Positions 11,852 to 63,720 of a DNA stretch of 64,000 nt are shown piece by piece. How positions within the stretch are numbered: position 1 is the stretch's first letter; the number at the start of each line of letters is the position of its first letter. A model generated the notes under the pieces. The model did no database searches. It had not been told where the DNA came from and worked only from the letters and a program-made list of their open reading frames with translations. This DNA is from Balanoglossus misakiensis (Eukaryota > Animalia > Hemichordata): positions 9,331,337 to 9,395,336 of the forward strand of contig CM082586.2 in NCBI GenBank assembly GCA_040954595.2, written 5' to 3'. The position numbers were made by a program, and so were the translations under genes.

Positions 11852-11935
11852 TGTATGTATGTATGTATGTATGTATGTATGTATGTATGTATGTATGTAT
11901 GTATGTATGTACCGGCATGTATGTGCGTGCATGTG
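11740..11935. repeat. Compound (TG)n/(TATG)n/(CATG)n microsatellite
   Basis: Direct reading. Confidence 0.95.
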
Positions 11936-16830: not shown

Positions 16831-16971
16831 AATTAAAAATTCAAGAGTTCAATGCACGACTACCCATTGACCTTGACCACTGTAGCAAGTTTGAGAAGTG
16901 TACCTGCAGCGGTGTCTGAGATCTAGAGCGACAAAGAAATGACACAAGAAAAAAGAAAGAAAGAAAGACAG

Positions 16972-17025
16972 AAAAACCCCAACGAAACCAATAGGGCCCA
17001 AGCGCTGGTATGCGCTTGGGCCCTA
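16972..17025. repeat. Terminal hairpin cap (14-bp stem, 6-nt loop) containing the subterminal inverted repeat
   Basis: TAGGGCCCAAGCGC tggtat GCGCTTGGGCCCTA at 16992-17025, preceded by the conserved AAAAACCCCAACGAAACCAA. Confidence 0.9.
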
Positions 17026-20000
17026 AAGAAAGACTGAATTAAAGCTGCAAGCAGCATTGTCCGGGCCCAAGCTCTATTATCTGATCTGATTATTAGATAT
17101 GCACATAATTAATGAGTAGAAACATAATGCTGTGTTTTATCCCATGAAATATCATGGTTATATCTATGTTTAGTGCTGATAAAGTGTTAAGTAGGTCAAA
17201 GGTCACCCAGAGGTCACCCATAATTTGGGCAGAAAATTTTGACCCATAGTGGTCCATGTCCAACAAAAACCAGACCTATAGCACTTTTGGTTAGCCCGGA
17301 ATTAAGTATGCACATAAATAATGAGTTAAGCAGGTGTCACAGGTGACCCACAACTTTGGCTTTTCATTATGGCCCCATACCTCCAAACGCCAAGGCTGTA
17401 TCTGCTGTGGATGCTGATATTTGCAAAAGTAGGTCAAAGGTCACCAGAGGTCACCCAACATTTGGGTAAAATTTTTTGACCCCATACTAGTCCTGTCCAA
17501 CAAAAACAAAACCTCTAGGTCTATTGGTTCGCCTGTAATTAGCTATGCACATAATTAATGAGGTCAGCAGGGGTCAAAGGGGTCGTGAAAAGTAGCAAAA
17601 AATTTTGATCACACACTTATCCACATACATCAAAAACCAAACTTATAGCCCTATTGGTTAGCCTGGAATTAGATATGCAGAAAAATGATGCGTCAAAAGT
17701 AGGTCAAAGGTCATTGCCAAAATTACCAAAATATTTATAGCATATTGTAGTCATATGATGATCCATATCCATAAAAAGAATTTCTGTGCTATCAATTTTT
17801 AGGCTAGAAAGGGAATTTTTACTTTTTAATCGTTTTTCACAAAATCCAATATGGCCGCCATAATCTTCGACCAATCACATTCCTCTTCGCAAACTTGATA
17901 GACATCTGGTGAATGACCACACACACAAAATCTTGTGACTCGGTTATCACCGGTTCTCGAGAAGAAGATTTTTGAAATTTTACTAGGGTTTTTCGAAAAT
18001 CCAATATGGCCGCCATAATCTTCGACCAATCACAATGATCTTCGCAAACTTGATAGACATCAGTTAGGTGACCACATACCCCAAACCCCGTGTCTCGGTT
18101 ATCACCGGTTCTAGAGAAGAAGATTTTTGAAATTTAAGCCAGATTTCAGAAAAAAAATTGTAGCAAAAAAACTGCAACATTGACAGCATAATTTCCAATT
18201 ACAAAAATGTTTGACAGAAGGTAGTCTACCTGCACGCCAAATTTGAAGTCGATCTGACTTGTAGTTTCTGAGATCTGAGATTTGCATTTTTTCAGAAAAT
18301 CCAAGATGGCCGCCAGGTCATGTGACTAATTAAAAATTCATGGGTTCAATGCACGACTACTCATTGACCTTGACCACTGTAGCAAGTTTGAGAACTGTAC
18401 CTGCAGTGGTGTCTGAGATCTAGAGCGACAAAGAAATGACAGAAGAATAAAGAAAGAAGAAAGAAAGACAGATTAAAGCTGCAAGCAGCATTGTCCGGGC
18501 CCAAGCTCTATTATCTGATCAGATTATTAGATATGCACATAATTAATGAGTAGAAACATAATGCTGTGTTTTATCCCACGAAATATCAAGGTTATATCTA
18601 TGTTTGGTGTTGATATAGTGTTAAGTAGGTCAAAGGTCACCCAGAGGTCACCCACAATTTGGGCAGAAAATTTTGACCCATAGTGGTCCATGTCCAACAA
18701 AAACCAGACCTCTATCCCTTTTGGTTAGCCCAGAATTAGGTATGCACATAAATAATGAGTTAAGCAGGTGTCACAGGTGACCCAAAACTTTGGCTTTTCA
18801 TTATGGCCCCATACCTCCAAACGCCAGGGCTGTATCTGCTGTGGATGTCGAGATATGCAAAAGTAGGTCAAAGGTCATCCGAGGTCACCCAACATTTGGG
18901 CAAAAAAATTTGACCCAATACTGGTTCATGTCCAACAAAAACCAAACCTCTAGGTCTATTGGTTCATCTGTAATTAGGTATGCGCATATTTAATGAGGTC
19001 AGCAGAGGTCAAAGGGGTCATGAAAAGTAGCGAAATTTTTTGATTGCATACAAATCCACATACATCAAAAACCAAACTTATAGCCCTATTAGTTAGCCTG
19101 GAATTAGATATGCAGAAAAATGATGTGTCAAAAGTAGGTCAAAGGTCATTGTCAAAATTACCAAAATATTTATAGCTTATTCTTGGCATATGATGATTCA
19201 TATCCATAAAAAGAATTTCTGTGCTATCAATTTTTAGGCTAGAAAGGGAATTTTTACTTTTTAATCGTTTTTCACAAAATCCAATATGGCCGCCATAATC
19301 TTCGACCAATCACATTCACCTTCGCAAACTTGATAGACATCTGTTTAATGACCACACACACCAAATCTTGTGACTCAGTTATCGCCGGTTCTTGAGAAGA
19401 AGATTTTTGAAATTTTACTAGGGTTTTTCGAAAATCCAATATGGCCGCCATAATCTTCGACCAATCACAATGATCTTCGCAAACTTGATAGACCTCACTT
19501 AGGTGACCACATACCCCAAACCACGTGACTCGGTTATTGCCGGTTCTGGAGAAGAAGATTTTTGAAATTTTGACCAGATTTCAGAAAAAAAATTGTAGCA
19601 AAAAAACTGCAACATTGACAGCAAAATATCCAATTACAAAAATGATGGGCAGAAGGTACACTACCAGCACACCAAATCTGAAGTAAATCTGACTTGTAGT
19701 TTCTGAGATCTGAGATTTGCATTTTTTCAGAAAATCCAATATGGCCGCCATGTCACGTGACTAATTAAAAATTCAAGAGTTCAATGCACGACTACCCATT
19801 GACCTTGACCACTGTAGCAAGTTTGAGAAGTGTACCTGCAGCGGTGTCTGAGATCTAGAGCGACAAAGAAATGACAGAAGAATAAAGAAAGAAGGAAAGA
19901 CAGAATTAAAGCTGCAAGCAGCATTGTCCGGGCCCAAGCTCTATTATCTGATCTGATATTAGATATGCACATAATTAATGAGTTGAAACATAATGCTGTT

Positions 20001-23000
20001 TTATCCCATGAAATATCAAGGTTATATGTATGTTTGGTGCTGTTAAAGTGTTAAGTAGGTCAAAGGTCACCCAGAGGTCACCCAACATTTGGGCAGAAAA
20101 TTTTGACCCATAGTGGTCCATGTCCAACAAAAACCAGACCTCTAGCCCTTTTTGTTAGCCTGGAATTAGGTATGCACATAAATAATGCGTAAAGCAGGTG
20201 TCACAGGTGACCCAAAACTTTGGCTTTTCATTATGGCCCCATACCTCCAAATGCCAAGGCTGTACCTGCTTTGGATGCCGAGATATGCAAAAGTACGTCA
20301 AAGGTCATCTGAGGTCATCCAAAATTTGGGCAGAAAATTTTGACCCATAGTGGTCCATGTCCAACAAAAAACAGACCTCTAGCCCTTTTGGTTAGCCTAG
20401 AATTAGGTATGCACATAATTAATGAGTTAAGCAGGTGTCACAGGTGACCCAAAACTTTGGCTTTTCATTATGGCCCCATACCTCCAAACGCCAAGGCTGT
20501 ATCTGCTGTGGATGTCAAGATATGCAAAAGTAGGTCAAAGGTCACCCGAGGTCACCCAACATTTGGGCAAAATATTTTGACCCCATACTGGTCCATGTAT
20601 AACAAAAACAAAACTTCTAGGTCTATTGGTTCATCTGTAATTAGGTATGTGCATATTTAATGAGGTCACCAGAGGTCAATGGGGTCATGAAAAATAGCAA
20701 AATTTTTGGATCACATAGAAATCCACATACATCAAAAACCAAACTTATAGCCCTATTGGTTAGCCTGGAATTAGATATGCAGAAAAATCATGTGTCAAAA
20801 GTAGGTCAAAGGTCATTGCCAAAATTACCAAAATATTTATAGCTTATTCTTGGCATATGATGATTCATATCCGTAAAAATAATTTCTGTGCTATCAATTT
20901 TTAGGCTAGAAAGGGAATTTTTACTTTTTAATCATTTTTCACAAAATCCAATATGGCCGCCATAATCTTCGACCAATCACATTCCTCTTCGCAAACTTGA
21001 TAGACATCTGTTTAATGACCACACACACCAAATCTTGTGACTCAGTTATCGCCGGTTCTTGAGAAGAAGATTTTTGAAATTTTACTATGGTTTTTCGAAA
21101 ATCCAATATGGCCGCCATAATCTTCAACCAATCACAATGATCTTCGCAAACTTGATAGACATCAGTTAGGTGACCACATACCCCAAACCGCATGACTCGG
21201 TTATCACCGGTTCTGGAGAAGAAGATTTTTGAAATTTAAGCCAGATTTCAGAAAAAAAATTGTAGCAAAAAATTGCAACTTTGTCAGTATAATTTCCAAT
21301 AACAAAAATGATTGCCAGAAGGTAGTCTACCAGCATGCCAAATTTGAAGTCGATCTGACTTGTAGTTTCTGAGATCTTTGATTTGCATTTTTTCAGAAAA
21401 TCCAAGATGGCCGCCAGGTCATGTGACTAATTAAAAATTCAAGGGTTCAATGCACGACTACTCATTGACCTTGACCACTGTAGCAAGTTTCAGAAGTGTA
21501 CCTGCAGCGGTGTCTGAGATCTCGTGGGTCAAAGAATTGACACAAGAATAAAGAAAGAAAGAAAGAAAAATTCCAACGAAACCAATACGGGCCCAAGCCT
21601 GGCTTGGCTTGGGCCCGTAAAAACCCCAACGAAACCAATAGGGCCCAAGCGCTGGTATGCGCTTGGGCCCTAATTAAAGCTGCAAGCAGCATTGTCCGGG
21701 CCCAAGCTCTATTATCTGATCTGATTATTAGATATGCACATAATTAATGAGTAGGAACATAATGCTGTGTTTTATCCCATGAAATATCAAGGTTATATCT
21801 ATGTTTGGTGTTGATATAGTGTTAAGTAGGTCAAAGGTCACCCAGAGGTCACCCACAATTTGGGCAGAAAATTTTGACCCATAGTGGTCCATGTCCAACA
21901 AAATCCAGATCTCTAGCCCTTTTGGTTAGCCCGAAATTAGGTATGCACATAAATAATGAGTTAAGCAGGTGTCACAGGTGACCCAAAACTTTGGCTTTTC
22001 ATTATGGCCCCATACCTCCAAACGCCAAGGCTGTATCTGCTGTGGATGTCGAGATATGCAAAAGTAGGTCAAAGGTCATCCGAGGTCACCCAACATTTGG
22101 GCAAAAAAATTTGACCCAATACTGGTTCATGTCCAACAGAAACCAAACATCTAGGTCTATTGGTTCATCTGTAATTAGGTATGCGCATATTTAATGAGGT
22201 CAGCAGAGGTCAAAGGGGTCATGATAAGTAGCGAAATTTTTTGATCACATACAAATCCACATACATCAAAAACCAAAATCATAGCCCTATAGGTTAGCCT
22301 GGAATTAGATATGCAGAAAAAAATGATGTGTCAAAAGTAGGTCAAAGGTCATTGCCAAAATTACCAAAATATTTGGGGTAGGTCCTGGCAGGGATGATAC
22401 CAATGTGCACAAAAATCAGAACTCTGGTACATTTAGAACACGCAGTATGAGCTATATATGCATATATGCAGGTTCTTAAAAAAGTAGGTCAAAGGTCATG
22501 TGAAAATTTCCAAAATATTTGCAACATATTCTAGTCATATCAAGACTCATATCCATAAAAAGAATGTGTATGCTATCTATTTTTAGACTAGAAATATGAT
22601 TTCTTAATTTTCGCTGGTTTTTACAAAATCCAATATGGCCGCCATAATCTTCGACCAATCACAACGCTCTTCGCAAACTTGATAGACATCAGTTAGGTGA
22701 TGTCATACCCTAAATCCCATGACTCGGTTATTGCCGGTTCTGGAGAAGAAGATTTTTGAAGATTTTACTGTACTTTTTCGAAAATCCAATATGGCGGCCA
22801 AAGTCACGTGACCGCTCAGGATTTTATTGTCAAACTTTGAAGGGCAGAGGACATGTGTACCATACACCAAATTTGAACTTGATTGGCCCTGTGGTTTTTG
22901 AGAAGAAGCCATTTAAAGATTTTCAGAAAATCCAATATGGCCGCCAGGTCACGTGACTAATTAAATATTCACAAGCCACTGCACATCTACTCATTGACCT

Positions 23001-26000
23001 TGACCACTGTAGCAAGTTTGAGAAGTGTACCTGTAGCCATTTCAGAGATCTAGGAGAGCAAAGATTGACATAAGAATAAAGAAAGATTAAAGCTGCAAGC
23101 AGCATTGTCCGGGCCCAAGCTCTATTATCTGATCTGATTATTAGATATGCACATAATTAATGAGTACAAACATAATGCTGTGTTTTACCCCATAAAATAT
23201 CAAGGTTATATCTATGCTTGGTGTTGATATAGTGTTAAGTAGGTCAAAGGTCACCCAGAGGTCACCCACAATTTGGGCAGAAAATTGTGACCCATAGTAG
23301 TCCATGTCCAACAAAAACCAGATATCTAGCCCTTTTGGTTAGCCCAGAATTAGGTATACACATAAATAATGAGTAAGCAGGTGTCACAGGTGACCCAAAA
23401 CTTTGGCTTTTCATTATGGCCCCATACCTCCAAACGCCAAGGCTGTATCTGCTGTGGATGTCAAGATATGCAAAAGTAGGTCAAAGGTCACCCGAGGTCA
23501 CCCAACATTTGGGCAAAATAGTTTCACCCCATACTGGTCCATGTATAACAAAAACAAAACCTCTAGGTCTATTGGTTCACCTGTAATTAGGTATGTGCAT
23601 ATTTAATGAGGTCAACAGAGGTCAAAGGGGTCATGAAAAGTAGCAACATTTTTTGATCACATACAAATCCACATACATCAAAAACCAAACTTATAGCCCT
23701 ATTGGTTAGCCTGGAATTAGATATGCAGAAAAATGATGCGTCAAAAGTAGGTCAAAGGTCATTGCCAAAATTACCAAAATATTTATAGCTTATTCTTGGC
23801 ATATGATGATTCATATCCATAAAAAGAATTTCTGTGCTATCAATTTTTAGGCTAGAAAGGGAATTTTTTCTTTTTAATCGTTTTTCACAAAATCCAATAT
23901 GGCCGCCATAATCTTCGACCAATCACATTCCCCTTCGCAAACTTGATAGACATCTGTTTAATGACCACACACACCAAATCTTGTGACTCGGTTATCGCCG
24001 GTTCTTGAGAAGAAGATTTTTGAAATTTTACTAGGGTTTTTCGAAAATCCAATATGGCCGCCGTAATCTTCGACCAATCACAATGATCTTCGCAAACTTG
24101 ATAGACATCAGTTAGGTGACCACATACCCTAAACCCCGTGTCTCGGTTATCACCGGTTCTGGAGAAGAAGATTTTTGAAATTTAAGCCAGATTTCAGAAA
24201 AAAAATTGTAGCAAAAAAACTGCAACTTTGTCAGCATAATTTCCAATTACAAAAATGATTGACAGAAGGTAGTCTACCTGCAGGCCAAATTTGAAGTCGA
24301 TCTGACTTGTAGTTTATGAGATCTGAGATTTGCATTTTTTCAGAAAATCCAATATGGCCGCCAGGTCACGTGACTAATTAAAAATTCATGGGTTCAATGC
24401 ACGACCACTCATTGACCTTGACCACTGTAGCAAGTTTGAAAACTGTACCTGCAGTGGTGTCTGAGATCTAGAGCGACAAAGAATTGACATAAGAATAAAG
24501 AAAGAAAGAAAGAAAGACTGAAAAATACCAACGAAACCAATAGGGCCCAAGCCTGGCTTGGCTTGGGCCCTAAAAAATTCCAACGAAACCAATACGGGCC
24601 CAAGCCTGGCTTGGCTTGGGCCCGTAATTAAAGCTGCAAGCAGCATTGTCCGGGCCCAAGCTCTATTATCTGATCTGATTATTAGATATGCACATAATTA
24701 ATGAGAAGAAACATAATGCTGTGTTTTATCCCACGAAATATCAAGGTTATATCTATGTTTGGTGTTGATATAATGTTAAGTAGGTCAAAGGTCACCAAGA
24801 GGTCACCCACAATTTGGGCAGAAAATTTTGACCCATAGTGGTCCATGTCCAACAAAAACCAGACCTCTAGCCCTCTTGGTTAGCCTGGAATTAGGTATGC
24901 ACATAATTAATGAGTTAAGCAGGTGTCACAGGTGACCCAAAACTTTGGCTTTTCATTATGGCCCCATACCTCCAAACGCCAAGGCTGTATCTGCTGTGGA
25001 TGTCGAGATATGCAAAAGTAGGTCAAAGGTCACCCCAGGTCACCCAACATTTGGGCAAAATATTTTGACCCCATACTGGTCCATGTATAACAAAAACAAA
25101 ACCTCTAGGTCTATTGGTTCATTTGTAATTAGGTATGTGCATATTTAATGAGGTCAGCAAAGGTCAAAGGGGTCATGAAAAGTAGCAAAAATTTTTGATC
25201 ACATACAAATCCACATACATCAAAAACCAAACTTATAGCCCTATTGGGTAGCCTGGAATTAGATATGCAGAAAAATGATGCGTCAAAAGTAGGTCAAAGG
25301 TCATTGCCAAAATTACCAAAATATTTATAGCTTATTCTTGGCATATGATGATTCATATCCATAAAAAGAATGTCTGTGCTATCAATTTTTAGGCTAGAAA
25401 GGGAATTTTTACTTTTTAATCGTTTTTCACAAAATCCAATATGGCCGCCATAATCTTCGACCAATCACATTCCTCTTCGCAAACTTGATAGACATCTGTT
25501 CAATGACCACACACACCAAATCTTGTGACTCGGTTATCGCCGGTTCTTTAGAAGAAGATTTTTGAAATTTTACTAGGGTTTTTCGAAAATCCAATATGGC
25601 CGCCATAATCTTCGACCAATCACAATGATCTTCGCAAACTTGATAGACCTCAGTTTGGTGACCACATACCCCAAACCGCGTGACTCGGTTATCTCCGGTT
25701 CTGGAGAAGAAGATTTTTGAAATTTTGACCAGATTTCAGAAAAACAAATGTAGCAAAAAAACTGCAACATTTACAGCAAAATATCCAATTACAAAAATGA
25801 TGGGCAGAAGGTACACTACCAGCACACCAAATCTGAAGTCGATCTGACTTGTAGTTTCTGAGATCTGAGATTTACATTTTTTCAGAAAATCCAATATGGC
25901 CGCCATGTCACGTGACTAATTAAAAATTCAAGAGTTCAATGCACGACTACTCATTGACCTTGACCATTGTAGCAAGTTTGAGAAGTGTACCTGCAGAGGT

Positions 26001-26054
26001 GTCTGAGATCTAGAGCGACAAAGAAATGACACAAGAAAAAAGAAAGAAAGACAG

Positions 26055-26266
26055 AAAAACCCCAACGAAACCAATAGGGCCCAAGCGCTGGCTTGCGCTT
26101 GGGCCCTAAAAAACCCCAACAAAACCAATAGGGCCCAAGCGCTGGTATGCGCTTGGGCCCTAAAAATACCAACGAAACCAATAGGGCCCAAGCCTGGCTT
26201 GGCTTGGGCCCTAAAAACCCCAACGAAACCAATAGGGCCCAAGCGCTGCTATGCGCTTGGGCCCTA
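26055..26266. repeat. Stack of four terminal hairpin caps
   Basis: Caps end at 26108, 26162, 26213 and 26266 and differ in loop or leader. The stack is duplicated at ~38963-39174. Confidence 0.92.
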
Positions 26267-36800: not shown

Positions 36801-37481
36801 ATATGGCCGCCATAATCTTCGACCAATCACAATGCTCTTTGCAAACTTGATAGACATCAGTGAAGTGACCAAACTCCCCGAATCTTGCGACTCAGTTATC
36901 GCCCGTTCTGGAGAAGAAGATTTTTTGAGTTTTACTATGGTTTTTCGAAAATCCAATATGGCCGCCATAATCTTCGACCAATCACAATGATCTTCGCAAA
37001 CTTGATAGACATCAGTTAGGTGACCACATACACCAAACCCCGTGTCTCGGTTATCACCGGTTCTGGAGAAGAAGATTTTTGAAATTTTGACCAGATTTAA
37101 GAAAAAAAATTGTGGCAAAAAAACTGCAACATTGACAGCATAATTTCCAATTACAAAAATGATGGGCAGAAGGTAGTCTACCTGCACGCCAAATTTGAAG
37201 TCGATCTGACTTGTAGTTTCTGAGATCTGAGATTTGCATTTTTTCAGAAAATCCAAGATGGCCGCCAGGTCATGTGACTAATTAAAAATTCAAGGGTTCA
37301 ATGCACGACTACTCATTGACCTTGACCACTGTAGCAAGTTTCAGAAGTGTACCTGCAGTGGTCTCTGAGATCTAGAGCGACAAAGAATTGACACAAGAAT
37401 AAAGAAAGAAAGAAGAAAGAAAGACAGAAAAACCCCAACGAAACCAATAGGGCCCAAGCGCTTGCTTGCGCTTGGGCCCTA
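33811..37481. mobile_element. Long (3671 bp) subfamily-B member with a unique interior, nested in the element starting at 32397
   Basis: Left terminus at 33811, non-repetitive interior ~34140-34640, degenerate then intact ~237-bp subrepeats, own cap ending at 37481. The host's AAAATTCC-type cap follows immediately. Confidence 0.8.
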
Positions 37482-50100: not shown

Positions 50101-53100
50101 TGAAATATCAAGGTTATATCTATGTTTGGTGCTGATATAGTGTTAAGTAGGTCAAAGGTCACCCAGGGGTCACCCACAATTTGGGCAGAATATTTTGACC
50201 CATAGTGGTCAATGTCCAACAAAAACCAGACCTCTAGCCCTTTTGGTTAACCCGGAATTAGGTATGCACATAAATAATGCGTAAAGCAGGTGTCACAGGT
50301 GACCCCACAACTTTGGCTTTTCATTATGGCCCCATACCTCCAAACGCCAAGGTTGTACCTGCTTTGGATGCTGAGATATGCAAAAGTAGGTCAAAGGTCA
50401 TCTGAGGTCACCCAAAATTTGGGTAGAAAATTTTGACCCGTAGTGGTCCATGTATAACAAAAACAAAACCTCTAGGTCTATTGGTTCATCTGTAATTAGG
50501 TATGTGCATATTTAATGAGTAAAGCAGGTGTCACAGGTGACCCAAAACTTTGGCTTTTCATTATGGCCCCATACCTCCAAACGCCAAGGCTGTATCTGGT
50601 GTGGATGTCGAGATATGCAAAAGTAGGTCAAAGGTCACCCGAGGTCACCCAACATTTGGGCAAAATATTTTGACCCCATACTGGTCCATGTATAACAAAA
50701 ACAAAACCTCTAGGTCTATTGGTTCATCTGTAATTAGGTATATGCATATTTAATGAGGTCAGCAGAGGTCAAAGGGGTCATGAAAAGTAGCAAAATTTTT
50801 TGATCACATACAAATCCACATACATCTAAAACCAAACTTATAGCCCTATTGGTTAGCCAGGAATTAGATATGCAGAAATAATAATGTATGATAAGTAGGT
50901 CAAAGGTCATTGCCAAAATTACCAAAATATTTACAGCTTATTGTTGGCATATGATGATTCATATCCATAAAAAGAATTTCTGTGCTATCAATTTTTAGGC
51001 TAGAAACAGAATTTTTACTTTTTAATCGTTGTTCACAAAATCCAATATGGCCGCCAAAATCTTCGACCAATCACAATGATCTTCGCAAACTTGATAGACA
51101 TCTGTTTAATGACCACACACACCAAATCTTGTGACTCGGTTATCGCCGGTTCTTGAGAAGAAGATTTTTGAAATTTTACTAGGGTTTTTCGAAAATCCAA
51201 TATGGCCGCCATAATCTTCCACCAATCACAATGATCTTCGCAAACTTGATAGACCTCAGTTTGGTGACCACATACCCCAAACCGCGTGACTCGGTTATCG
51301 CCGGTTCTGGAGAAGAAGATTTTTGAAATTTTGACCAGATTTCAGAAAAACAACTGTAGCAAAAAAACTGCAACATTGACAGCAAAATATCCAATTACAA
51401 AAATGATGGGTAGAAGGTAGACTACCTGCACACCAAGTTTGAAGTCGATCTGACTTGTAGTTTCTGAGATCTGAGATTTGCATTTTTTCAGAAAATCTAA
51501 TATGGCCGCCAGGTCACGTGACTAATTAAAAATTCAAGGGTTCAATGCACATCTACTCATTGACCTTGACCACTGTAGCAAGTTTGAGAAGTGTACCTGC
51601 AGTGGTGTCTGAGATCTAGAGCGACAAAGAATTGACACAAGAATAAAGAAAGAAGAAAGAAGAAAGAAGGAAAGACAGAATTAAAGCTGCAAGCAGCATT
51701 GTCCGGGCCCAAGCTCTATTATCTGATCTGATTATTAGATATGCACATAATTAATGAGTAGAAACATAATGTTGTGTTTTATCACATGAAATATCAAGAT
51801 TATATCTATGTTTAGTGCTGATATAGTTTTAAGTAGGTCAAAGGTCACCCAGAGGTCACCCACAATTTGGGCAGAAAATTTTGACCCATAGTGGTCCATG
51901 TCCAACAAAAACCAGACCTCTAGCCCTTTTGGTTAGCCCGGAATTAGGTATGCACATAAATAAGCAGTTGTCACAGGTGACCCAAAACTTTGGCTTTTCA
52001 TTATGGCCCCATACCTCCAAACGCGAAGGCTGTATCTGCTTTGGATGCTGAGATTTGCGAAAGTAGGTCAAAGGTCACCAGAGGTCACCCAACATTTGGG
52101 TAAAAACATTTGACCCCATACTGGTCCTGTCCAACAAAAACAAAACCTCTAGGTCTATTGGTTCGTCTGTAATTAGCTATGCACATAATTAATGAGGTCA
52201 GCAGGGGTCAAAGGGGTCGTGAAAAGTAGCAAAATATTTTGATCACACATTAATCCACATACATCAAAAACCAAACTTATAGCCCTATTGATTAGCCTGG
52301 AATAAGATATGCAGAAAAATGATGCGTCAAAAGTAGGTCAAAGGTCATTGCCAAAATTACCAAAATATTTATAGCACATTGTAGTCATATGATGATTCAT
52401 ATCCATAAAAATAATTTCTGTGCTATCAATTTTTAGGCTAGAAAGGGAATTTTTACTTTTTAATCGTTTTTCGCAAAATCCAATATGGCCGCCATAATCT
52501 TCGACCAATCACAATGCTCTTTGCAAACTTGATAGACATCAGTATAGTGACCATACTGCCCAAATCTTGTGACTCAATTATCGCCGGTTCTTGAGAAGAA
52601 GATTTTTGAAGTTTTACTATGGTTTTTCGAAAATCCAATATGGCCGCCATAATCTTCGACCAATCACAATGATTTTCGCAAACTTGATAGACATCAGATA
52701 GGTGACCACATACCCCAAACCCCGTGTCTCGGTTGTCACCGGTTCTGGAGAAGAAGATTTTTGAAATTTAAGCCGGATTTCAGAAAAAAAATTGTAGCAA
52801 AAAAACTGCAACATTGACAGCATAATTTCCAATTACAAAAATGATGGGCAGAATGTAATCTACCTGCACACCAAATTTGAAGTCGATCTGACTTGTAGTT
52901 TCTGAGATCTGAGATTTGCATTTTTTCAGAAAATCCAATATGGCCGCCAGGTCACGTGACTAATTAAAAATTCAAGGGTTCAATGCACGACTACTCATTG
53001 ACCTTGACCACTGTAGAAAGTTTGAGAAGTGTACCTGCAGCGGTGTCTGAGATCTAGAGCGACAAAGAATTGACACAAGAATAAAGAAAGAAAGAAAGAA

Positions 53101-56100
53101 AGAAAGAATTAAAGCTGCAAGCAGCATTGTCGGGCCCAAGCGCTGATCTTGAATTATATATGCACAGTGTGAATGAGAAGAAGCAGAATTTTCTATCGGA
53201 TGTATTATCTCATGACATAACAAGGATGTGTGTATTTTTGCTGCTGAAATAGGGTGAAGTAGGTCAAAGGTCACCTGAGGTCACCCAACATTTGGGTAAT
53301 TTTTTTTTACCCATACTGGTCCATGTCCAATAAAAACCAAAACTCTAGCTCTATTGGTTTGCGTGTAATTAGGTATGTGCATATTTAATGAGGTCAGCAG
53401 GTGTCACAGGTGACCCAAAAATGTGGCTTTACATTTTGGTCCCATCCTACCAAATGCCATGGCTGTATCTGCTGTGGATGCTGAGATATGCGAAAGTAGG
53501 TCAAAGGTCACCAGAGGTCACGCAACATTTGGGCATAAAATTTTGATCCCATTCTGGTCCATGTCCAACAAAAACCAAACCTCTAGCTTTATTGGTTCGC
53601 CTGTAATTAGCTATGCACATAATTAATGAGGTCAGCAGAGGTCAAAGGGGTCATGAAAAGTAGCAAAATATTTTGATCACACATTAATCCACATTCATCA
53701 AAAACCAAACGTCTAGCCCTACAGGTTAGCCTGGAATTAGATATGCAGAAATAATAACGCGAGATAAGTAGGTCAAAGGTCATGTGAAAAATCGCCAAAA
53801 AATTGTAACACATTTTAGTCACATGACGATTGATATCCTTAAAAAGAATTTGTATGCTATCAATTTTTAGACTAGAAAAAGGAATTTCAATTTTTCACTG
53901 CTTTTTACAAAATCCAATATGGCCGCCATAATCTTCGACCAATCACAATGCTCTTTGCTAACTTGATAGACATCAGTGTAGTGACCATACTCCTCGAATC
54001 TTGCGACTAAGTCATCGCCCGTTCTGGAGAAGAAGATTTTTGCAGTTTAACTATGGTTTTTCGAAAATCCAATATGGCCGCCATAATCTTCGACCAATCA
54101 CAATGATCTTCGCAAACTTGATAGACATCAGTTAGGTGACCACATACCCCAAACCTCGTGTCTCGGTTATCACTGGTTCTGGAGAAGAAGATTTTTGAAA
54201 TTTAAGCCAGATTTCAGGAAAAAAATTGTAGCAAAAAAACTGCAACTTTTACAGCATAATTTCCGATTACAAAAATGATGGGCAGAAGGTAGTCTACCTG
54301 CATGCCAAATTTGAAGTTGATCTGACTTGTAGTTTCTGAGATCTGAGATTTGCATTTTTTCAGAAAATCCAATATGGCCGCCAGGTCACGTGACTAATTA
54401 AGTATTCACAAGTCACTGCACATCTACTCATTGACCTTGACCACTGTAGCAAGTTTGAGCAGTGTACCTGCAGTAGTTTCAGAGATCTCGTTGGCCAAAG
54501 AATTGACAGGAGAATAAAGAAAGAAAGAAAGAAAAATTCCAACGAAACCAATAGGGCCCAAGCGCTTGCTTGCGCTTGGGCCCTAAAAACCCCAACGAAA
54601 CCAATAGGGCCCAAGCGCTGGTATGCGCTTGGGCCCTAATTAAAGCTGCAAGCAGCATTGTCGGGCCCAAGCGCTGATCTCGAATTATATATGCACAGTA
54701 TGAATGAGAAGAAACAGAATTTTCTATCTGGTGTATTATCTCATGACATAACAAGGACGTGTGTATTTTTGCTGCTGAAATAGGCAGAAGTAGGTCAAAG
54801 GTCACCTGAGGTCACCCAACATTTGGGCAAATTTTTTTGACCCATACTGGTCCATGTCCAACAAAAACCAAAACTCTAGCTCTATTGGTTCGCCTGTAAT
54901 TAGGTATGTGCATATTTAATGAGGTCAGCAGGTGTCACAGGTGACCCAAAAATGTGGCTTTACATTTTGGTCCCATCCTACCAAATGCCATGGCTGTATC
55001 TGCTCTGGATGCTGAGATATGCGAAAGTAGGTCAAAGGTCACCCAACATTTGGGCAAAAAATTTTGATCCCATACTGGTCCATGTCCAACAAAAACCAAA
55101 CCTCTAGCTCTATTGGTTCGCCTGTAATTAGCTATGCACATAATTAATGAGGTCAGCAGAGATCAAAGGGGTCATGAAAAGTAGCAAAATATTTTGATCA
55201 CACACTAATCCACATGCATCAAAAACCAAAAGTCTAGCCCTATAGGTTAGCCTGGAATTAGATATGCAGAAATAATAACGCGTGATAAGTAGGTCAAAGG
55301 TCATGTGAAAAATCGCCAAAAATTTGTAACATATTTTAGTCATATGATGATTGATATCCATGAAAAGAATTTGTCTGCTGTCAATTTTTAGACTAGGACA
55401 AGGAATTTCAATTTTTCACTGCTTTTTACAAAATCCAATATGGCCGCCATAATCTTCGACCAATCACAATGTTCTTTGCAATCTTGATAGACATCAGTAT
55501 TGTGACCATACTCCCTGAATCTTGCGACTCAGTTATCGCCTATTCTGGAGAAGAAGATTTTTGCAGTTTTACTATGGTTTTTCGAAAATCCAATATGGCC
55601 GCCATAATCTTCGACCAATCACAATGCTTCTTATCAAACTTGATAGACATCAGTTAGGTGACCACATACCCCAAACCGCGTCACTCGGTTATCACCGGTT
55701 CTGGAGAAGAAGATTTTTGAAATTTAAGCCAGATTTCAGAAAAAAAATTGTAGCAAAAAAACTGCAACATTTACAGCAAAATATCCAATTACAAAAATGA
55801 TGGGTAGAAGGTAGACTACCTGCACACCAAATTTGAAGTCGATCTGACTTGTAGTTTCTGAGATCTGAGATTTGCATTTTTTCAGAAAATCCAATATGGC
55901 CGCCATGTCACGTGACTAATTAAAAATTCAAGAGTTCAATGCACGACTACCCATTGACCTTGACCACTGTAGCAAGTTTGAGAAGTGTACCTGCAGCGGT
56001 GTCTGAGATCTAGAGCGACAAAGAAATGACACAAGAATAAAGAAAGAAAGAAAGAAAGAAAGACAGAATTAAAGCTGCAAGCAGCATTGTCCGGGCCCAA

Positions 56101-57516
56101 GCTCTATTATCTGATCAGATTATTAGATATGCACATAATTAATGAGTAGAAACATAATGCTGCGTTTTATCCCATGAAATATCAAGGTTATATCTATGTT
56201 TGGTGTTGATATAGTGTTAAGTAGGTCAAAGGTCACCCAGAGGTCACCCACAATTTGGGCAGAAAATTTTGATCCATAGTGGTCCATGTCCAACAAAAAC
56301 CAGACCTCTAGCCCTTTTGGTTAGCCCGGAATTAGGTATGCACATAAATAATGAGTTAAGCAGGTGTCAAAGGTGACCCAAAACTTTGGCTTTTCATTAT
56401 GGCCCCATACCTCCAAACGCCAAGGTTGTATCTGCTGTGGATGTCGAGATATGCAAAAGTAGGTCAAAGGTCACCCGAGGTCACCCAACATTTGGGCAAA
56501 ATATTTTGACCCCATACTGGTCCATGTATAACAAAAACAAAACCTCTAGGTCTATTGGTTCATCATTAATTAGGTATGCGCATATTTAATGAGGTCACCA
56601 GAGGTCAAAGGGGTCATGAAAAGTAGCAACATTTTTTGATCACATACAAATCCACATACATCAAAAACCAAACTTATAGCCCTATTGGTAAGCCTGGAAT
56701 TAGATATGCAGAAAAATGATGCGTCAAAAGTAGGTCAAAGGTCATTGCCAAAATTACCAAAATATTTATAGCTTATTCTTGTCATATGATGATTCATATC
56801 CATAAAAAGAATTTCTGTGCTATCAATTTTTAGGCTAGAAAAGGAATTTTTACTTTTTAATCGTTTTTCACAAAATCCAATATGGCCGCCATAATCTTCG
56901 ACCAATCACATTCCCCTTCGCAAACTTGATAGACACCTATTTAATGACCACACACACCAAATCTTGTGACTCGGTTATCGCCCGTTCTTGAGAAGAAGAT
57001 TTTTGAAGTTTTACTATGGTTTTTCGAAAATCCAATATGGCCGCCATAATCTTCGACCAATCACAATGATCTTCGCAAACTTGATAGACATCAGTTAGGT
57101 GACCACATACCCCAAACCGCGTGACTCAGTTATCACCGGTTCTGGAGAAGAAGATTTTTGAAATTTAAGCCAGATTTCAGAAAAAAAATTGTAGCAAAAA
57201 AACTGCAACATTTACAGCAAAATATCCAATTACAAAAATGATGGGTAGAAGGTAGACTACCTGCACACCAAATTTGAAGTCGTTCTGACTTGTAGTTTCT
57301 GAGATCTGAGATTTGATTTTTTTCAGAAAATCCAATATGGCCGCCAGGTCACGTGACTAATTAAAAATTCACAGGTTCAATGCACGACTACTCATTGACT
57401 TTGACCACTGTAGCAAGTTTGAGAAGTGTACCTGCAGTGGTGTCTGAGATCTAGAGCGACAAAGAATTGACACAAGAATAAAGAAAGAAGAAGAAAGAAG
57501 AAAGAAGGAAAGACAG

Positions 57517-57815
57517 AAAAACCCCAACGAAACCAATAGGGCCCAAGCGCTGGTATGCGCTTGGGCCCTAAAAACCCCAACGAAACCAATAGGGCCCAAG
57601 CGCTGGTATGCGCTTGGGCCCTAAAGAAAGAAAGAAAGAAAAACCCCAACGAAACCAATAGGGCCCAAGCGCTGGCTTGCGCTTGGGCCCTAAAGAAGGA
57701 AAGACAGAAAAACCCCAACGAAACCAATAGGGCCCAAGCGCTGGCTTGCGCTTGGGCCCTAAAAAACCCCAACGAAACCAATAGGGCCCAAGCGCTGCTA
57801 TGCGCTTGGGCCCTA
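57517..57815. repeat. Stack of five terminal hairpin caps, two preceded by GAAA microsatellite remnants
   Basis: Five GGGCCCAAGCGC...GCGCTTGGGCCCTA hairpins, with spacers aagaaagaaagaaag and aagaaggaaagacag. Confidence 0.92.
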
Positions 57816-60800
57816 ATTAAAGCTGCAAGCAGCATTGTCAGGCCCAAGCGCTGATCTTTAATTATATATGCACAGTATGAATGAGGAGAAACAGAATTTT
57901 CTATTGGGTGTATTATCTCATGACATAACAAGGACGTATGTATTTTTGCTGCTGAAATTGGGTAAAGTAGGTCAAAGGTCACCTGAGGTCACCCAAAATT
58001 TGGGCAAAAAATTTTGACCCATGCTGGGCCATGTCCAACAAAAACCAAAACTCTAGCTCTATTGGTTTGCGAGTAATTAGGTATGTGCATATTTAATGAG
58101 GTCAACACGTGTCACAGGTGACCCAAAAATGTGGCTTTATATTTTGGTCCCATCCTGCCAAATGCCAAGGCTGTATCTGCTCTGGATGCTGAGATATGCG
58201 AAAGTAGGTCAAAGGTCACAAGAGGTCACCAAACATTTGGGCAAAAAAATTGGATCCAATACTGGTCCATGTCAAACAAAAAACAAACCTCTAGCTCTAT
58301 TGGTTCGCCTGTAATTAGCTATGCACATAATTAATGAGGTCAGCAGAGGTCAAAGGGGTCATGAAAAGTAGCAAAATATTTTGATCACACACTAATCCAC
58401 ATGCATCAAAAACCAAACGTCTAGCCCTATAGGTTAGCCTGGAATTAGATATACAGAAATAATAACGTGTGAAAAGTAGGTCAAAGGTCATGTGAAAAAT
58501 CGCCAAAAATTTGTAACATATTTTAGTCATATGACGATTGATATCCATGAAAAAATTTGTATGCTATCAATTTTTAGACTAGGAAAAGGAATTTCAATTT
58601 TTCACTGCTTTTTACAAAATCCAATATGGCCGCCATAATCTTCGACCAATCACAATGCCCTTTGCAAACTGGATAGACATCAGTGTAGTGACCATACTCC
58701 CCGAATCTTGCGACTCAGTTATTGCCCGTTCTGGAGAAGAAGATTTTTGCAGTTTTACTATGGTTTTTCGAAAATCCAATATGGCCGCCATAATCTTCGA
58801 CCAATCACAATGCTTCTTATCAAACTTGATAGACATCAGTTAGGTGACCACATACCCCAAATTCCGTGACTCGGTTATCGCCGGTTCTTGAGAAGAAGAT
58901 TTTTGAAGTTTTATTTGGATTTTTCGAAAATCCAATATGGCGGCCAAAGTCACGTGACCGCTCGAGATTTTATTATTAAACTTTGTTGGGCAGAGGCCAT
59001 GTGTACTATGTACCAAATTTGAACTTGATATGCCTTGTAGTTTTTGAGAAGAAGTCATTTACATTTTCTCAGAAAATCCAATATGGCCGCCAGGTCACGT
59101 GACTAATTAAGTATTCACAAGTCACTGCACATCTACTCATTGACCTCGACCACTGTATCAAGTTTGAGCAGTGTACCTGCAGTAGTTTCAGAGATTTAGT
59201 TGGCCGAAGAATTGACAGGAGAATAAAGAAAGAAAGAAAGAATTAAAGCTGCGAGCAGCATTGTCGGGCCCAAGCGCTGATCTTGAATTATATATGCACA
59301 GTATGAATGAGAAGAAACAGAATTTTCTATCAGATGTATTATCTCATGACATAACAAGGATGTGTGTATTTTTGCTGCTGAAATAGGGTGAAGTAGGTCA
59401 AAGGTCACCTGAGGTCACCCAACATTTGGGCAAAAAATTTTGAACCCATACTGGTCTATGTCCAACAAAAACCAAAACACTAGCTCTATTGGTTCGCGTG
59501 TAATTAGGTATGTGCATATTTAATGAGGTCAGCAGGTGTCACAGGTGACCCAAAAATGTGGCTTTACATTTTGGTCCCATCCTATCAAATGCCATGGCTG
59601 TATCTGCTCTGGATGCTGAGATATGCGAAAGTAGGTCAAAGGTCACCAGAGGTCACCCAACATTTGGGCAAAAAATTTTGATCCCATACTTGTCCATGTC
59701 CAACAAAAACCAAACCTCTAGCTCTATTGGTTCACCTGTAATTAGCTATGCACATAATTAATGAGGTCAGCAGAGGTCAAAGGGGTCATGAAAAGTAGCA
59801 AAATATTTTGATCACACACTAATCCACAAGCATCAAAAACCAAACGTCTAGCCCTATAGGTTAGCCTGGAATTAGATATGCAGAAATAATAACGCGTGAT
59901 AAGTAGGTCAAAGGTCATGTGAAAAATCGCCAAAAAATTGTAACATATTTTAGTCACATGACGATTGATATCCATAAAAAGAATTTGTATGCTATCAGTT
60001 TTTGGACTAGAAAACGGAATTTCAATTTTTCACTGCTTTTTACAAAATCCAATATGGCCGCCATAATCTTCAACCAATCACAATGCTCTTTGCAAACTTG
60101 ATAGACATCAGTGTAGTGACCATACTCCCCGAATCTTGCGACTCAGTCATCGCCCGTTCTGGAGAAGAAGATTTTTGGAGTTTAACTATGGTTTTTCGAA
60201 AATCCAATATGGCCGCCATAATCTTCGACCAATCACGATGATCTTCGCAAACTTGATAGACATCACTTAGGTGACCACATACCCCAAACCCCGTGTTTCG
60301 GTTATCACTGGTTCTGGAGAAGAAGATTTTTGAAATTTAAGCCAGATTTCAGAAAAAAAATTGTAGCAAAAAAACTGCAACATTGACAGCAAAATTTCCA
60401 ATCACAAAAATGATGGGCAGAAGGTAGTCTACCTGCATGCCAAATTTGAAGTCGATCTGACTTGTAGTTTCTGAGATCTGAGATTTGAATTTTTTCAGAA
60501 AATCCAATATGGCCGCCAGGTCACGTGACTAATTAAGTATTCACAAGTCACTGCACATCTACTCATAGACCTTGACCACTGTAGCAAGTTTGAGCAGTGT
60601 ACCTGCAGTAGTTTCTGAGATTTAGTTGGCCGAAGAATTGACACAAGAATAAAGAAAGAATTAAAGCTGCAAGCAGCATTGTCGGGCCCAAGCGCTGATC
60701 CGGAATTATATATGCACAGTATGAATGACAAGAAACAGAATGCTCTATCAGGTTTTTTATCTCATGACATAACAAGGCCATGTGTTTTTTTGGTGCAGAA

Positions 60801-63535
60801 ATAGAGTAAAGTAGGTCAAAGGTCACCTGAGGTCACCCAAATTTTGGGAAATTTTTTTGGACCCATATTCGTCCATGTCCAACAAAAACCAAAACTCTAG
60901 CTCTATTGGTTCGCCTGTAATTAGGTATGTGCATATTTAATGAGGTCAGCAGGTGTCACAGGTGACCCAAAAATGTGGCTTTACATTTTGGTCCTATCCT
61001 TCCAAATGCCAAGGCTGTATCTGCTCTGGATGCTGAGATATGCGAAAGTAGGTCAAAGGTCACCAGAGGTCATCAACATTTGGGCAAAACATGTTGACCC
61101 CATACTGGTCCATGTCCAACAAAAACCAAACAACTAGCTCTATTGGTTCGCCTGTAATTAGCTATGCACATAATTAATGAGGTCAACAGAGGTCAAAGGG
61201 GTCATGAAAAGTAGCAAAATATTTTGATCACACACTAATCCACATACATCAAAAACTAAACGTCTAGCCCTATAGGTTAGCCTGGAATTAGATATGCAGA
61301 AATAATAACGTGCGAAAATTAGGTCAAAGGTCATGTGAAAAATCGCCAAAAATGTGTAACATATTTTAGTCATATGGCGATTGATATCCATGAAAAGAAT
61401 TTGTATGCTATTAATTTTTAGACTAGGAAAAGGAATTTCAATTTTTCACTGCTTTTTACAAAATCCAATATGGCCGCCATAATCTTCGACCAATCACAAT
61501 GCTCTTTGCAAACTTGATAGACATCAGTGTAGTGACCATACTCCCCGAATCTTGCGACTCAGTTATCGCCCGTTCTGGAGAAGAAGATTTTTGGAGTTTT
61601 ACTATGGTTTTTCGAAAATCCAATATGGCCGCCATAATCTTCGACCAATCACAATGCTTCTTATCAAACTTGATAGACATCTGTTAAGTGACCACATACA
61701 CCAAACCCCGTGACTCGGTTATCACCGGTTCTGGAGAAGAAGATTTTTGAAATTTAAGCCAGATTTCAGAAAAAAAAATTGTAGCAAAAAAACTGCAACA
61801 TTTACAGCAAAATATCCAATTACAAAAATGATGGGCAGATGGTAGTCTACCTGCATGCCAAATTTGAAGTCGATCTGACTTGTAGTTTCTGAGATCTGAG
61901 ATTTGCATTTTTTCAGAAAATCCAATATGGCCACCAGGTCACGTGACTAATTAAAAATTCAAGAGTTCAATGCACGACTACCCATTGACCTTGACCACTG
62001 TAGCAAGTTTGAGAAGTGTACCTGCAGCGGTGTCTGAGATCTAGAGCGACAAAGAAATGACACAAGAATAAAGAAAGAAGAAAGAAAGACAGATTAAAGC
62101 TGCAAGCAGCATTGTCCGGGCCCAAGCTCTATTATCTGATCTGATATTAGATATGCACATAATTAATGAGTAGAAACATAATGCTCTGTTTTATCCCATG
62201 AAATATCAAGGTTATATCTATGTTTGGTGTTGATATAGTGTTAAGTAGGTCAAAGGTCTCCCAGGGGTCACCCACAATTTGGGCAGAAAATTTTGACCCA
62301 TAGTGGTCCATGTCCAACAAAAACCAGACCTCTAGCCCTTTTGGTTAGCCTGGAATTAGGTATGCACATAAATAATGAGTTAAGCAGGTGTCACAGGTGA
62401 CCCAAAACTTTGGCTTTTCATTATGGCCCCATACCTCCAAACGCCAAGGTTGTATCTGCTGTGGATGTCGAGATATGCAAAAGTAGGTCAAAGGTCACCC
62501 GAGGTCACCCAACATTTGGGCAAAATATTTTGACCCCATACTGGTCCATGTATAACAAAAACAAAACCTCTAGGTCTATTGGTTCATCATTAATTAGGTA
62601 TGCGCATATTTAATGAGGTCACCAGAGGTCAAAGGGGTCATGAAAAGTAGCAAAAATTTTTGGTCACATACAAATCCACATACATCAAAAACCAAACTTA
62701 TAGCCCTATTGGTTAGCCTGGAATTAGATATGCAGAAAAATGATGCGTCAAAAGTAGGTCAAAGGTCATTGCCAAAATTACCAAAATATTTATAGCTTAT
62801 TCTTGTCATATGATGATTCATATCCATAAAAAGAATTTCTGTGCTATCAATTTTTAGGCTAGAAAAGGAATTTTTACTTTTTAATCGTTTTTCACAAAAT
62901 CCAATATGGCCGCCATAATCTTCGACCAATCACATTCCTCTTCGCAAACTTGATAGACATCTGTTTAATGACCACACACACCAAATCTTGTGACTCGGTT
63001 ATCGCCCGTTCTTGAGAAGAAGATTTTTGAAGTTTTACTATGGTTTTTCGAAAATCCAATATGGCCGCCATAATCTTCGACCAATCACAATGATCTTCGC
63101 AAACTTGATAGACATCAGTTAGGTGACCACATACCCCAAACCGCGTGACTTAGTTATCACCGGTTCTGGAGAAGAAGATTTTTGAAATTTAAGCCAGATT
63201 TCAGAAAAAAAATTGTAGCAAAAAAACTGCAACATTTACAGCAAAATATCCAATTACAAAAATGATGAGTAGAAGGTAGACTACCTGCACACCAAATTTG
63301 AAGTCGATCTGACTTGTAGTTTCTGAGATCTGAGATTTGCATTTTTTCAGAAAATCCAATATGGCCGCCAGGTCACGTGACTAATTAAAAATTCAAGGGT
63401 TCAATGCACGACTACTCATTGACCTTGACCACTGTAGCAAGTTTCAGAAGTGTACCTGCAGCGGTGTCTGAGATCTAGAGCGACAAAGAATTGACAGAAG
63501 AATAAAGAAAGAAAGAAAGAAAGAAGGAAAGACAG

Positions 63536-63720
63536 AAAAACCCCAACGAAACCAATAGGGCCCAAGCGCTGGCTTGCGCTTGGGCCCTAAAAAACCCCAA
63601 CGAAACCAATAGGGCCCAAGCGCTGGTATGCGCTTGGGCCCTAAAGAAAGAAAGCAAGCAAGAAAGAAAAATTCCAACGAAACCAATAGGGCCCAAGCGC
63701 TTGCGTGCGCTTGGGCCCTA
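63536..63720. repeat. Stack of three terminal hairpin caps
   Basis: Three hairpins; the third is preceded by aagaaagaaagcaagcaagaaag and has the AAAAATTCC leader. Confidence 0.9.

What the first reader, a model, noticed from the sequence alone, without database searches (positions are those of the whole stretch)
16972..63720. Self-targeting Russian-doll Helentron array: termini pair like nested brackets
Seen: 30 left termini and 30 hairpin caps. Caps per junction in order are 1,0,0,2,0,2,4,0,1,0,2,0,2,4,0,0,1,0,1,0,0,0,0,2,0,5,0,0,0,3. Intact ends read GACAG-AAAAA-CCCC, GACTG-AAAAA-TACC or GAAAG-AAAAA-TTCC. Treating left termini as '(' and caps as ')', the split halves rejoin exactly. GACAG| at 18471 joins |AAAAACCCC at 26109. 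GACAGA| at 19904 joins |AAAACCCC at 21620. GAAAG| at 23085 joins |AAAAATTCC at 24573. GACTGA| at 17037 joins |AAAATACC at 26163. GACAG| at 30860 joins the five-A cap at 32343. GAAAGA| at 33810 joins |AAAATTCC at 37482. GACAG| at 62092 and GAAAGA| at 60659 join the second and third caps of the 63536 stack. Both the A count and the cap subtype match. Established: Helentrons/HINEs insert at TT without TSD, and their tandem arrays are usually attributed to rolling-circle concatemers. Inference: this array grew by repeated precise insertion into a ~40-bp window next to the family's own hairpin end, so each new copy supplies a new target and the nesting records insertion order. I do not know of this being described for Helentrons, but could not search.
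Basis: partly seen in the sequence, partly recalled or inferred. Interest (0 to 1): 0.93.

Follow-up and report, generated by a model that had tools for sequence, protein, structure and literature searches.

The report
Helentrons nesting beside their own hairpin
This 47-kb block is a Russian-doll nest of small rolling-circle transposons that have landed again and again within about 45 bases of the end hairpin of earlier copies, next to an intact transposase gene that likely belongs to the nest, probably because the enzyme is drawn to resident ends; self-insertion of this transposon type was proposed before in a fungus, but here two duplicated copies were each hit separately at the same spots.

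Summary
Observation largely confirmed. Three corrections: 30:30 is a coincidence, the second four-cap stack is a segmental duplicate, and the five-cap stack parses only if one cap was lost (strict 10 of 13, p=0.003; repaired 13 of 13, post hoc). New evidence: (1) two duplicate segments are both 5,831 bp with 4 substitutions once inserts are removed, yet each carries different inserts at the same two sites, one base out of phase, so the hits were independent and left no target duplication; (2) all 19 nested events lie beside the hairpin and follow the known Helitron2 rule T[TC]TT|Y, although about 45 other such sites per element went unused; (3) an intact 2,438-aa OTU-Rep-Pif1-endonuclease Helentron ORF lies at 2867-10183, and its element likely ends at the first cap. 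Reads show the family also inserts at generic A-runs elsewhere; a genome-wide excess was not measurable. Self-insertion near the 5' end was already proposed for Fusarium Helitrons. Verdict: a new, well-documented variant of a known kind.

The parts
2867..10183 (+). Intact open frame, 2,438 aa stop to stop: Helentron transposase with OTU protease, DUF6570, HUH Rep, Pif1 helicase and AP-type endonuclease domains; reversed relative to the conventional Helitron2 termini
   Evidence: catalytic-motif patterns recalled, all found; best relatives 62-63% identical over residues 680-1500
14307..17025 (-). E0: family-type tail ending in an intact microsatellite, A5 tract and hairpin cap; likely the end of the ORF-bearing element, which is itself inserted in a host copy
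   Evidence: collinear 63-70% matches to the extra part of E12 from 14307, 87% from 15416; no family terminus in 1-15400; link to the ORF is inferred
17026..17037 (-). 12-bp middle fragment of host H's microsatellite, cut on both sides by insertions
   Evidence: rejoins cap 26163
17038..26162 (-). E1 (17038-18471 + cap 26109-26162) holding the tandem run E2[E3], E4[E5], E6
18472..21672 (-). E2 (18472-19904 + 21620-21672) split by E3 (19905-21619) at GA|A4
21673..24626 (-). E4 (21673-23085 + 24573-24626) split by E5 (23086-24572) at G|A5
26055..26266 (-). Four-cap stack: E6, E1, host H, host H'
27701..29201 (-). E8: intact copy between E7 and E9, absent from the twin junction E14|E15 (gained on the left-terminus side after the duplication, or lost from the twin)
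29674..40657 (.). Segmental duplicate of 18717-27749, crossover inside E9 (a hybrid of E15 and E2); 4 substitutions in 5,831 bp after the inserts are removed
29202..32396 (-). E9 (twin of E2 over its last 1.2 kb) split by E10 (30861-32342) at G|A5: a different insert, one base from E3's position
   Evidence: E3 and E10 are 93% identical
32397..37534 (-). E11 (body identical to E4) split by the 3.67-kb E12 (33811-37481) at GA|A4: a different insert, one base from E5's position
   Evidence: E5 and E12 are 86% identical
38963..39174 (-). Duplicate four-cap stack (not an independent record)
39175..57815 (-). E14-E25: deepest nest (parse depth 7), closed by caps at 54586 and the five-cap stack 57517-57815; needs one lost cap
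57816..64000 (-). E26[E27[E28[E29]]] with a three-cap stack ending at 63720, then the start of E30; the array runs off the window
29168..29201 (.). Example terminal hairpin: 14-bp stem, 6-nt loop, carrying the terminal inverted repeat; its inner arm repeats directly the GGGCCCAAGC motif found 24-25 nt inside the left terminus
   Evidence: -18.9 kcal/mol, z -6.6, 0 of 200 shuffles as stable
29202..29236 (.). Example left terminus (conventional 3' end): short stem-loop, then the subterminal inverted repeat
   Evidence: the small stem-loop folds no better than shuffles (157 of 200)

Best explanation
The block is a nest of non-autonomous Helentron (Helitron2-group) elements built by repeated, precise insertion 21-45 nt inside the hairpin end of resident copies, likely because transposase bound at a resident end nicks the nearest T[TC]TT|Y site. 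Shown: nesting, position, the T[TC]TT|Y rule, no gain or loss of bases, independent hits on duplicated hosts, one segmental duplication, an intact transposase ORF upstream. Inferred: that the ORF belongs to the element ending at 17025 and can supply the enzyme; that one cap was later lost; that tethering at the resident hairpin selects the site. Each insertion pushes the host's cap outward and brings a fresh hairpin with its own A5 tract and (GAAA)n, so targets multiply. The junction left by an insertion is again a TTTT|T site at the same distance from the host hairpin, so re-hits would give the exact head-to-tail runs of unlike copies. Unequal crossover and cap slippage then edit the record.
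For: Natural replicate: duplicate segments are both 5,831 bp with 4 mismatches after excision, yet carry E3 versus E10 and E5 versus E12 at sites one base apart, shifted in opposite directions. Four insertions on 12 hairpins against 3.4e-4 substitutions per base is about 970-fold (380-3,570) per site. All 19 independent nested events fall in the microsatellite/A-tract; the 15 measurable distances are 21-23 nt (11) and 33-45 nt (4). An ordinary copy has 8.2 rule-matching sites within 70 nt of the hairpin, 26.1 elsewhere on the same strand and 19.2 on the other; 19 of 19 by chance is about 2e-12 counting the same strand only. Upstream tetranucleotide is TTTT in 11 of 15 and TCTT in 4 of 15; the next base is T or C in 17 of 17, as reported for Helitron2 (PMC3627910, passages). 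Bracket test p=0.0005-0.003. Tandem neighbours 80-95% alike at the 9 of 12 junctions compared. ORF domains. One contig of run X2 holds a cap-to-cap joint.
Against: The strict parse fails for 3 of 13 pairs at 8 nt. Hosts do not carry more private mutations than their inserts (10 of 17, p=0.31). Body-to-cap co-segregation is uneven: p from 0.001 to 0.18 over 12 tests. The family also sits at generic A-rich flanks: 18 and 14 contigs with loose A-rich letters before the left terminus, 5 and 5 behind the cap. No genome was available to measure a genome-wide excess. E8 lies at a TAAT|C junction that breaks the rule unless it was deleted from the twin. Gene conversion between the duplicates would inflate the rate ratio. 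Nothing here shows protein binding. Same-orientation insertion is no independent evidence, since the T-tract's strand fixes it.
Confidence: 0.6

Rival explanations
1. Same nesting, but the site is chosen by DNA structure alone: the strong hairpin and the purine-rich (GAAA)n tract would expose single-stranded or nucleosome-free DNA that any T[TC]TT|Y-seeking transposase prefers, with no sequence-specific tether.
For: The hairpin is very stable. The fine phase follows the A-tract and not a fixed distance: caps with a one-base longer spacer are hit at 22 and 23 nt, the others at 21 and 22 (n=2). Four events lie further out in the microsatellite.
Against: Most events (11 of 15) crowd at 21-23 nt, close to the 24-25 nt between the same motif and the real left terminus. 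The long A-rich microsatellites and 132 rule-matching sites outside the ORF in 1-15400 hold no insertion of this family.
Confidence: 0.25
2. Rolling-circle concatemers and composite (end-bypass) transposition, reshuffled by recombination, produced the tandem runs and stacked caps without fresh insertion at these sites.
For: 12 of 12 cap-to-left junctions are exact, like circle junctions (PMC5876387 passages). Multi-terminus Fusarium copies move as units (PMC5148889). Hybrids and a duplication exist in this array.
Against: Tandem neighbours are 80-95% alike, never near-identical. Composite movement should add caps without split hosts, whereas here each cap has a split host and the one misfit is a missing cap. 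It cannot give different inserts at one-base-shifted sites in identical twins.
Confidence: 0.08
3. Generic TTTT|Y insertion with no bias; copies elsewhere in the body were purged or are just absent by chance.
For: All sites obey the published rule and dispersed copies exist at generic A-runs.
Against: Chance of 19 of 19 is 1e-12 or less. No body in the window is interrupted by a family terminus in either orientation, and no reason is known why same-strand body insertions would be removed.
Confidence: 0.04
4. Assembly artefact: collapsed or stitched repeat copies, or two haplotypes joined in tandem.
For: No long read spanning a stack was seen; the duplicate with a hybrid element could be a haplotype switch; no contig bridged a head-to-tail junction by 31 letters on both sides among those listed.
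Against: Copies differ by 1-27% and junction phases complement each other across kilobases, which mis-assembly would not create. One contig holds a cap-to-cap joint. If the duplicates are two haplotypes, the independent hits remain real.
Confidence: 0.03

Closest known systems
Helentron / HINE (DINE-1-like) elements; Thomas et al. 2014, PMC4067079 (passages); oyster Cg_HINE, PMC7492417 (first part and passages)
   Same: Subterminal inverted repeats, inverted arm next to the 5' repeat, microsatellite, central tandem repeats, 3' stem-loop, T-rich target, no target duplication; autonomous partner with OTU, Rep, Pif1 and endonuclease.
   Different: The passages read describe dispersed insertion at TT and do not describe insertion into the family's own end. 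Variable terminal T counts reported there are not seen here: lengths are conserved exactly.
Helitron2 group; Bao and Jurka 2013, PMC3627910 (passages); HLE2 and 'HLE2-reverse', PMC11417382 (passages and section 24)
   Same: 5' repeat 0-2 bp from the end forming a hairpin, 3' repeat 20-30 bp from the end, insertion between TTTT and T/C (TCTT listed as an alternative tetranucleotide for related families), DUF6570, ORF reversed in some members.
   Different: This family has the endonuclease domain, and uses almost only the one rule-matching tract beside a resident hairpin within the array.
Fusarium FoHeli1 with multiple 5' termini; Chellapan et al. 2016, PMC5148889 (passages, section 10); PMC13342296 (passages)
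   Same: Short stacked 5' (hairpin) termini, up to five, ascribed to self-insertion 31-85 nt from the 5' end.
   Different: There the stacks travel as chimeric elements and self-insertion is a hypothesis with one nested example. Here the split hosts are still in place, up to 7 deep, with replicate hits and a countable bias.
Paramecium telomere-capping Helitrons, PMC13085455 (passages)
   Same: Helitron-like elements proposed to insert at a specific target and pile up in one orientation.
   Different: The target is host telomeric repeat, not the element's own end; a separate clade.
Tandem transposon dimers by insertion-site preference (McGurk and Barbash 2018) and rolling-circle Helitron arrays (Xiong et al. 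2016), both seen only as summarised in PMC12628747
   Same: Arrays of whole elements that can seed satellite DNA.
   Different: Here the target is supplied by the element itself and the units are unlike each other, not truncated concatemer copies.

Membership tests
Helitron2 / HLE2 | Asymmetric terminal inverted repeats: one 0-2 bp from the 5' end, the other about 20-30 bp from the 3' end | tested here: met
   Minus strand: repeat 2 nt from the cap end; partner 24-25 nt from the left terminus in 30 of 30
Helitron2 / HLE2 | 5' terminal hairpin that includes the 5' repeat | tested here: met
   14-bp stem, z -6.6
Helitron2 / HLE2 | 3' stem-loop between the 3' repeat and the end | tested here: inconclusive
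   A 4-5 bp stem is predicted at the expected place but is no more stable than shuffles (157 of 200)
Helitron2 / HLE2 | Insertion between TTTT and T/C, no target-site duplication | tested here: met
   TTTT 11 of 15, TCTT 4 of 15; T/C 17 of 17; excised twins equal in length
Helitron2 / HLE2 | DUF6570 and HLE2-type Rep/helicase; phylogenetic placement | tested here: inconclusive
   DUF6570, PF14214 and PIF1 found; no tree with reference HLE1/HLE2 proteins was built
Helentron (autonomous) | AP endonuclease fused C-terminal to Rep/helicase; OTU protease | tested here: met
   PF03372 at 2228-2415 and PF02338 at 239-326, both above Pfam's cut-off; motifs present
Helentron (autonomous) | ORF lies between the same termini as the non-autonomous copies | tested here: inconclusive
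   Cap at 17025 with no intervening terminus and collinear homology from 14307; the other terminus lies outside the window
HINE / DINE-1-like | No coding capacity; microsatellite next to the 5' hairpin; central tandem repeats | tested here: met
   (GAAA)n beside each intact cap, 155-bp and 237-bp internal repeats. ORFs were not listed for 16-64 kb, so absence of coding is judged from length and repeat content only
HINE / DINE-1-like | Mobilised in trans by the Helentron transposase | not testable with these tools
   Needs a transposition assay
Canonical Helitron1 / HLE1 | 5'-TC and CTRR-3' ends, A|T target, no inverted repeats | tested here: not met
   Ends and targets differ
Rolling-circle concatemer array | Adjacent units near-identical | tested here: not met
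   80.2-95.1% at the 9 of 12 junctions compared

The most novel reading that the evidence does not exclude
The hairpin's inner arm is a decoy terminus. It repeats directly the motif that sits 24-25 nt inside the real left end, so the Rep domain cuts 21-23 nt from it as it would at its own end and joins an incoming copy there, the same chemistry as circle closure but between molecules. Every Helitron2-type element would then carry a built-in, self-renewing landing pad, a DNA-transposon safe haven that explains stacked 5' termini in fungi, seeds satellite-like arrays, and could be ported as a programmable, scar-free integration site.
Probability: 0.3. Interest if true: 0.82.

Novelty: new variant of a known kind. 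Interest (0 to 1): 0.64.

Why it matters
How Helentrons choose targets is untested: no active member has a published assay in the papers read, and the endonuclease's role is a hypothesis (PMC4067079). This locus supplies a measurable bias (one tract out of about 50 matching sites), a natural replicate that dates the hits against point mutations, and an intact transposase beside its substrates, so the question becomes directly testable. It also offers a route to long element arrays other than rolling-circle concatemers, and shows the in-place intermediate that was only hypothesised for Fusarium's stacked termini. Such nests will be mis-annotated as satellites or fragments.

Tried and rejected
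No whole genome is held, so the genome-wide target map could not be made. The tool for contigs around protein relatives was closed, so termini of the abalone, acorn-worm and fish relatives were not examined. The left-terminus pattern found 0 matches in metagenome contigs. The protein scan gave 1 locus at 46% identity (L001, 8.6 kb) with no 11-bp hairpin: uninformative. Age ordering by private mutations: no signal, expected if copies differ mostly by donor. Body-cap co-segregation: mixed. Rfam on 14000-30000: 0 matches. Read depth from contigs cannot be turned into junction counts, the microsatellite was skipped as a repeat, and 172 and 22 loose-end rows were not shown; all 3 runs are one sample of one study and may or may not be the source. 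I first took the 12 of 12 exact tandem junctions as proof of a second, end-joining pathway, then dropped that: 3 are duplicates, some are forced by a four-A target, and only about 3-5 are free two-way choices (hand count), so re-hits of the same site suffice except for E8. The 30:30 count was rejected as evidence. Literature searches found no paper describing in-place, hairpin-adjacent nests for animal Helentrons; the library lacks most subscription papers and Repbase reports, a 2010 paper on lepidopteran elements disrupting (GAAA)n microsatellites was seen only as a title, and supplements of PMC5148889 (Table S6) and PMC13342296 (Fig. S5) were not read and may bear on novelty.


Full report
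What is there. From 17038 to the window's end lie 30 copies of a 1.4-1.75 kb element (one of 3.67 kb), all in one orientation, with 30 left termini and 30 hairpin caps. Each intact copy has a left terminus with a short stem-loop and a GGGCCCAAGC motif 24-25 nt inside, internal 237-bp and 155-bp repeats, a (GAAA)n tract, a five-A tract and a terminal 14-bp hairpin. Bodies are 73-100% alike and fall into two well-supported clades plus one divergent type.

The bracket claim. The cap series and the 8 listed joins are correct. I scored each pair by whether the rejoined junction occurs in one of 12 intact ends. Strict last-in-first-out pairing scores 11 of 13 at 6 nt per side and 10 of 13 at 8 nt, against shuffled means of about 5 (p=0.0005, 0.003). 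The failures at these widths are all in the five-cap stack. The repair is post hoc; loss of one 53-bp unit from a tandem stack is plausible but inferred. At 10 nt per side the scores fall to 8 and 10 of 13 because microsatellite lengths vary. The 30:30 balance is chance.

18717-27749 is repeated at 29674-40657. E9 matches E15 exactly for its first 471 bp and E2 afterwards, the mark of an unequal crossover. So the second four-cap stack is not independent. With the inserts cut out, both copies are 5,831 bp and differ at 4 bases. Yet host E2 holds E3 at GA|A4 while its twin holds E10 at G|A5, and host E4 holds E5 at G|A5 while its identical twin holds E12 at GA|A4. The inserts are 93% and 86% alike. 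Each copy is thus the other's empty site: insertion adds or removes no base, and the same two tracts were hit independently in the time it took to gather 4 substitutions, about 970 times the point-mutation rate per site (380-3,570; conversion between the copies would inflate this). If the two copies are stitched haplotypes the conclusion stands. A fifth difference, E8, is either an insertion directly against E9's left terminus or a clean loss from the twin within 49 shared bases.

Target choice. Nineteen independent nested events can be counted (17 split left halves after dropping one duplicate, plus 2 whose left halves lie outside). All are in the microsatellite or A-tract. The 15 measurable ones lie 21-23 nt (11) or 33-45 nt (4) from the hairpin's inner arm. 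On the minus strand the four bases before the cut are TTTT (11) or TCTT (4) and the base after is T or C (17 of 17), the published Helitron2 preference. That rule alone does not pick the site: ten ordinary copies average 8.2 matching sites within 70 nt of the hairpin and 45 elsewhere, none used (p about 2e-12 on the same strand alone). The 12 head-to-tail junctions are exact but join unlike copies (80-95% at 9 compared), which argues against single-round concatemers; re-insertion at the junction, itself TTTT|T, can explain them.

The autonomous partner. 2867-10183 on the plus strand is an unbroken 2,438-aa frame with OTU, DUF6570, Rep, Pif1 and AP-endonuclease domains and intact-looking catalytic motifs (patterns recalled). 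Its nearest relatives are abalone, acorn-worm, hagfish and fish proteins at 58-65% over the region searched. No family terminus lies in 1-15400, sequence from 14307 is collinear with the long copy E12, and the tail ends in an intact cap at 17025 followed by a 12-bp piece of a host. The simplest reading is that the autonomous element is itself nested two levels deep, with its ORF reversed as in some Helitron2 elements. This link is inferred, since its other end is outside the window.

Outside evidence. No genome is held. Three runs of one sample hold the family at very high depth. One contig shows a cap-to-cap joint (36 letters on the short side). Others show left termini and caps against unrelated A-rich flanks, so self-targeting is a preference, not the only mode, and its genome-wide share is unmeasured. 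Tests that gave little: age ordering (10 of 17) and body-cap linkage (p 0.001-0.18). Four earlier AI notes from other genomes describe similar nests at the head hairpin; they are unchecked leads, but suggest the habit is widespread.

Mechanism and novelty. I favour transposase held at a resident end cutting the nearest T[TC]TT|Y (0.6), over pure structural accessibility (0.25). The sharper version, that the inner arm acts as a decoy terminus because it repeats the left-end motif at nearly the same spacing, is inference (0.3); Helraiser's precise cleavage and joining at end junctions (PMC5876387, passages) is the nearest biochemical precedent, from the other Helitron group. Self-insertion near the 5' end was proposed to explain multiple 5' termini in Fusarium (PMC5148889; up to five in PMC13342296), so the idea is not new. 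Nine searches found no account of in-place nests with a measured bias in animal Helentrons. I rate it a new variant of a known kind, interest 0.64.

Noticed in passing
window 1268-2523: Six copies of a 205-bp tandem repeat upstream of the transposase ORF, probably an internal satellite of the autonomous element.
   Followed up: no
window 2963-3257 and 4438-4725: In-frame 45-bp and 66-bp coding repeats in the N-terminal part of the transposase.
   Followed up: no
window 590-620 and 2880-2895: Possible short upstream exon and a splice acceptor just before the first Met of the ORF, by eye only.
   Followed up: no
window 34140-35630: E12 carries about 2.2 kb of extra sequence with degenerate 237-bp repeats, collinear with 14307-15413: a less-deleted derivative of an autonomous relative.
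   Followed up: partly
window 21673-23085: E4 is a mosaic: about 700 bp 97% like E2, then a divergent body (about 80% overall); recombination between subfamilies is common in the array.
   Followed up: partly
window 26162-29202 and 54532-57571: The pairs E7+E8 and E24+E25 are 97.8% alike, with the inner copy at G|A5 phase in one and GA|A4 in the other: perhaps an older replicate hit.
   Followed up: partly
runs X1, X2 at window 32431: 16 and 22 contigs share the left terminus but continue into different internal sequence: other families with the same ends exist in that genome.
   Followed up: no
proteins P0025/P0026, P0108/P0114: Related fish transposases carry adjacent or near-adjacent gene numbers on contigs of equal length, hinting at clustered autonomous copies in other genomes.
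   Followed up: no
window 10906-11103 and 11766-11911: Long (ATAA)n/(AAAC)n and (TGTA)n microsatellites downstream of the ORF, with no family insertion despite A-rich sites.
   Followed up: partly
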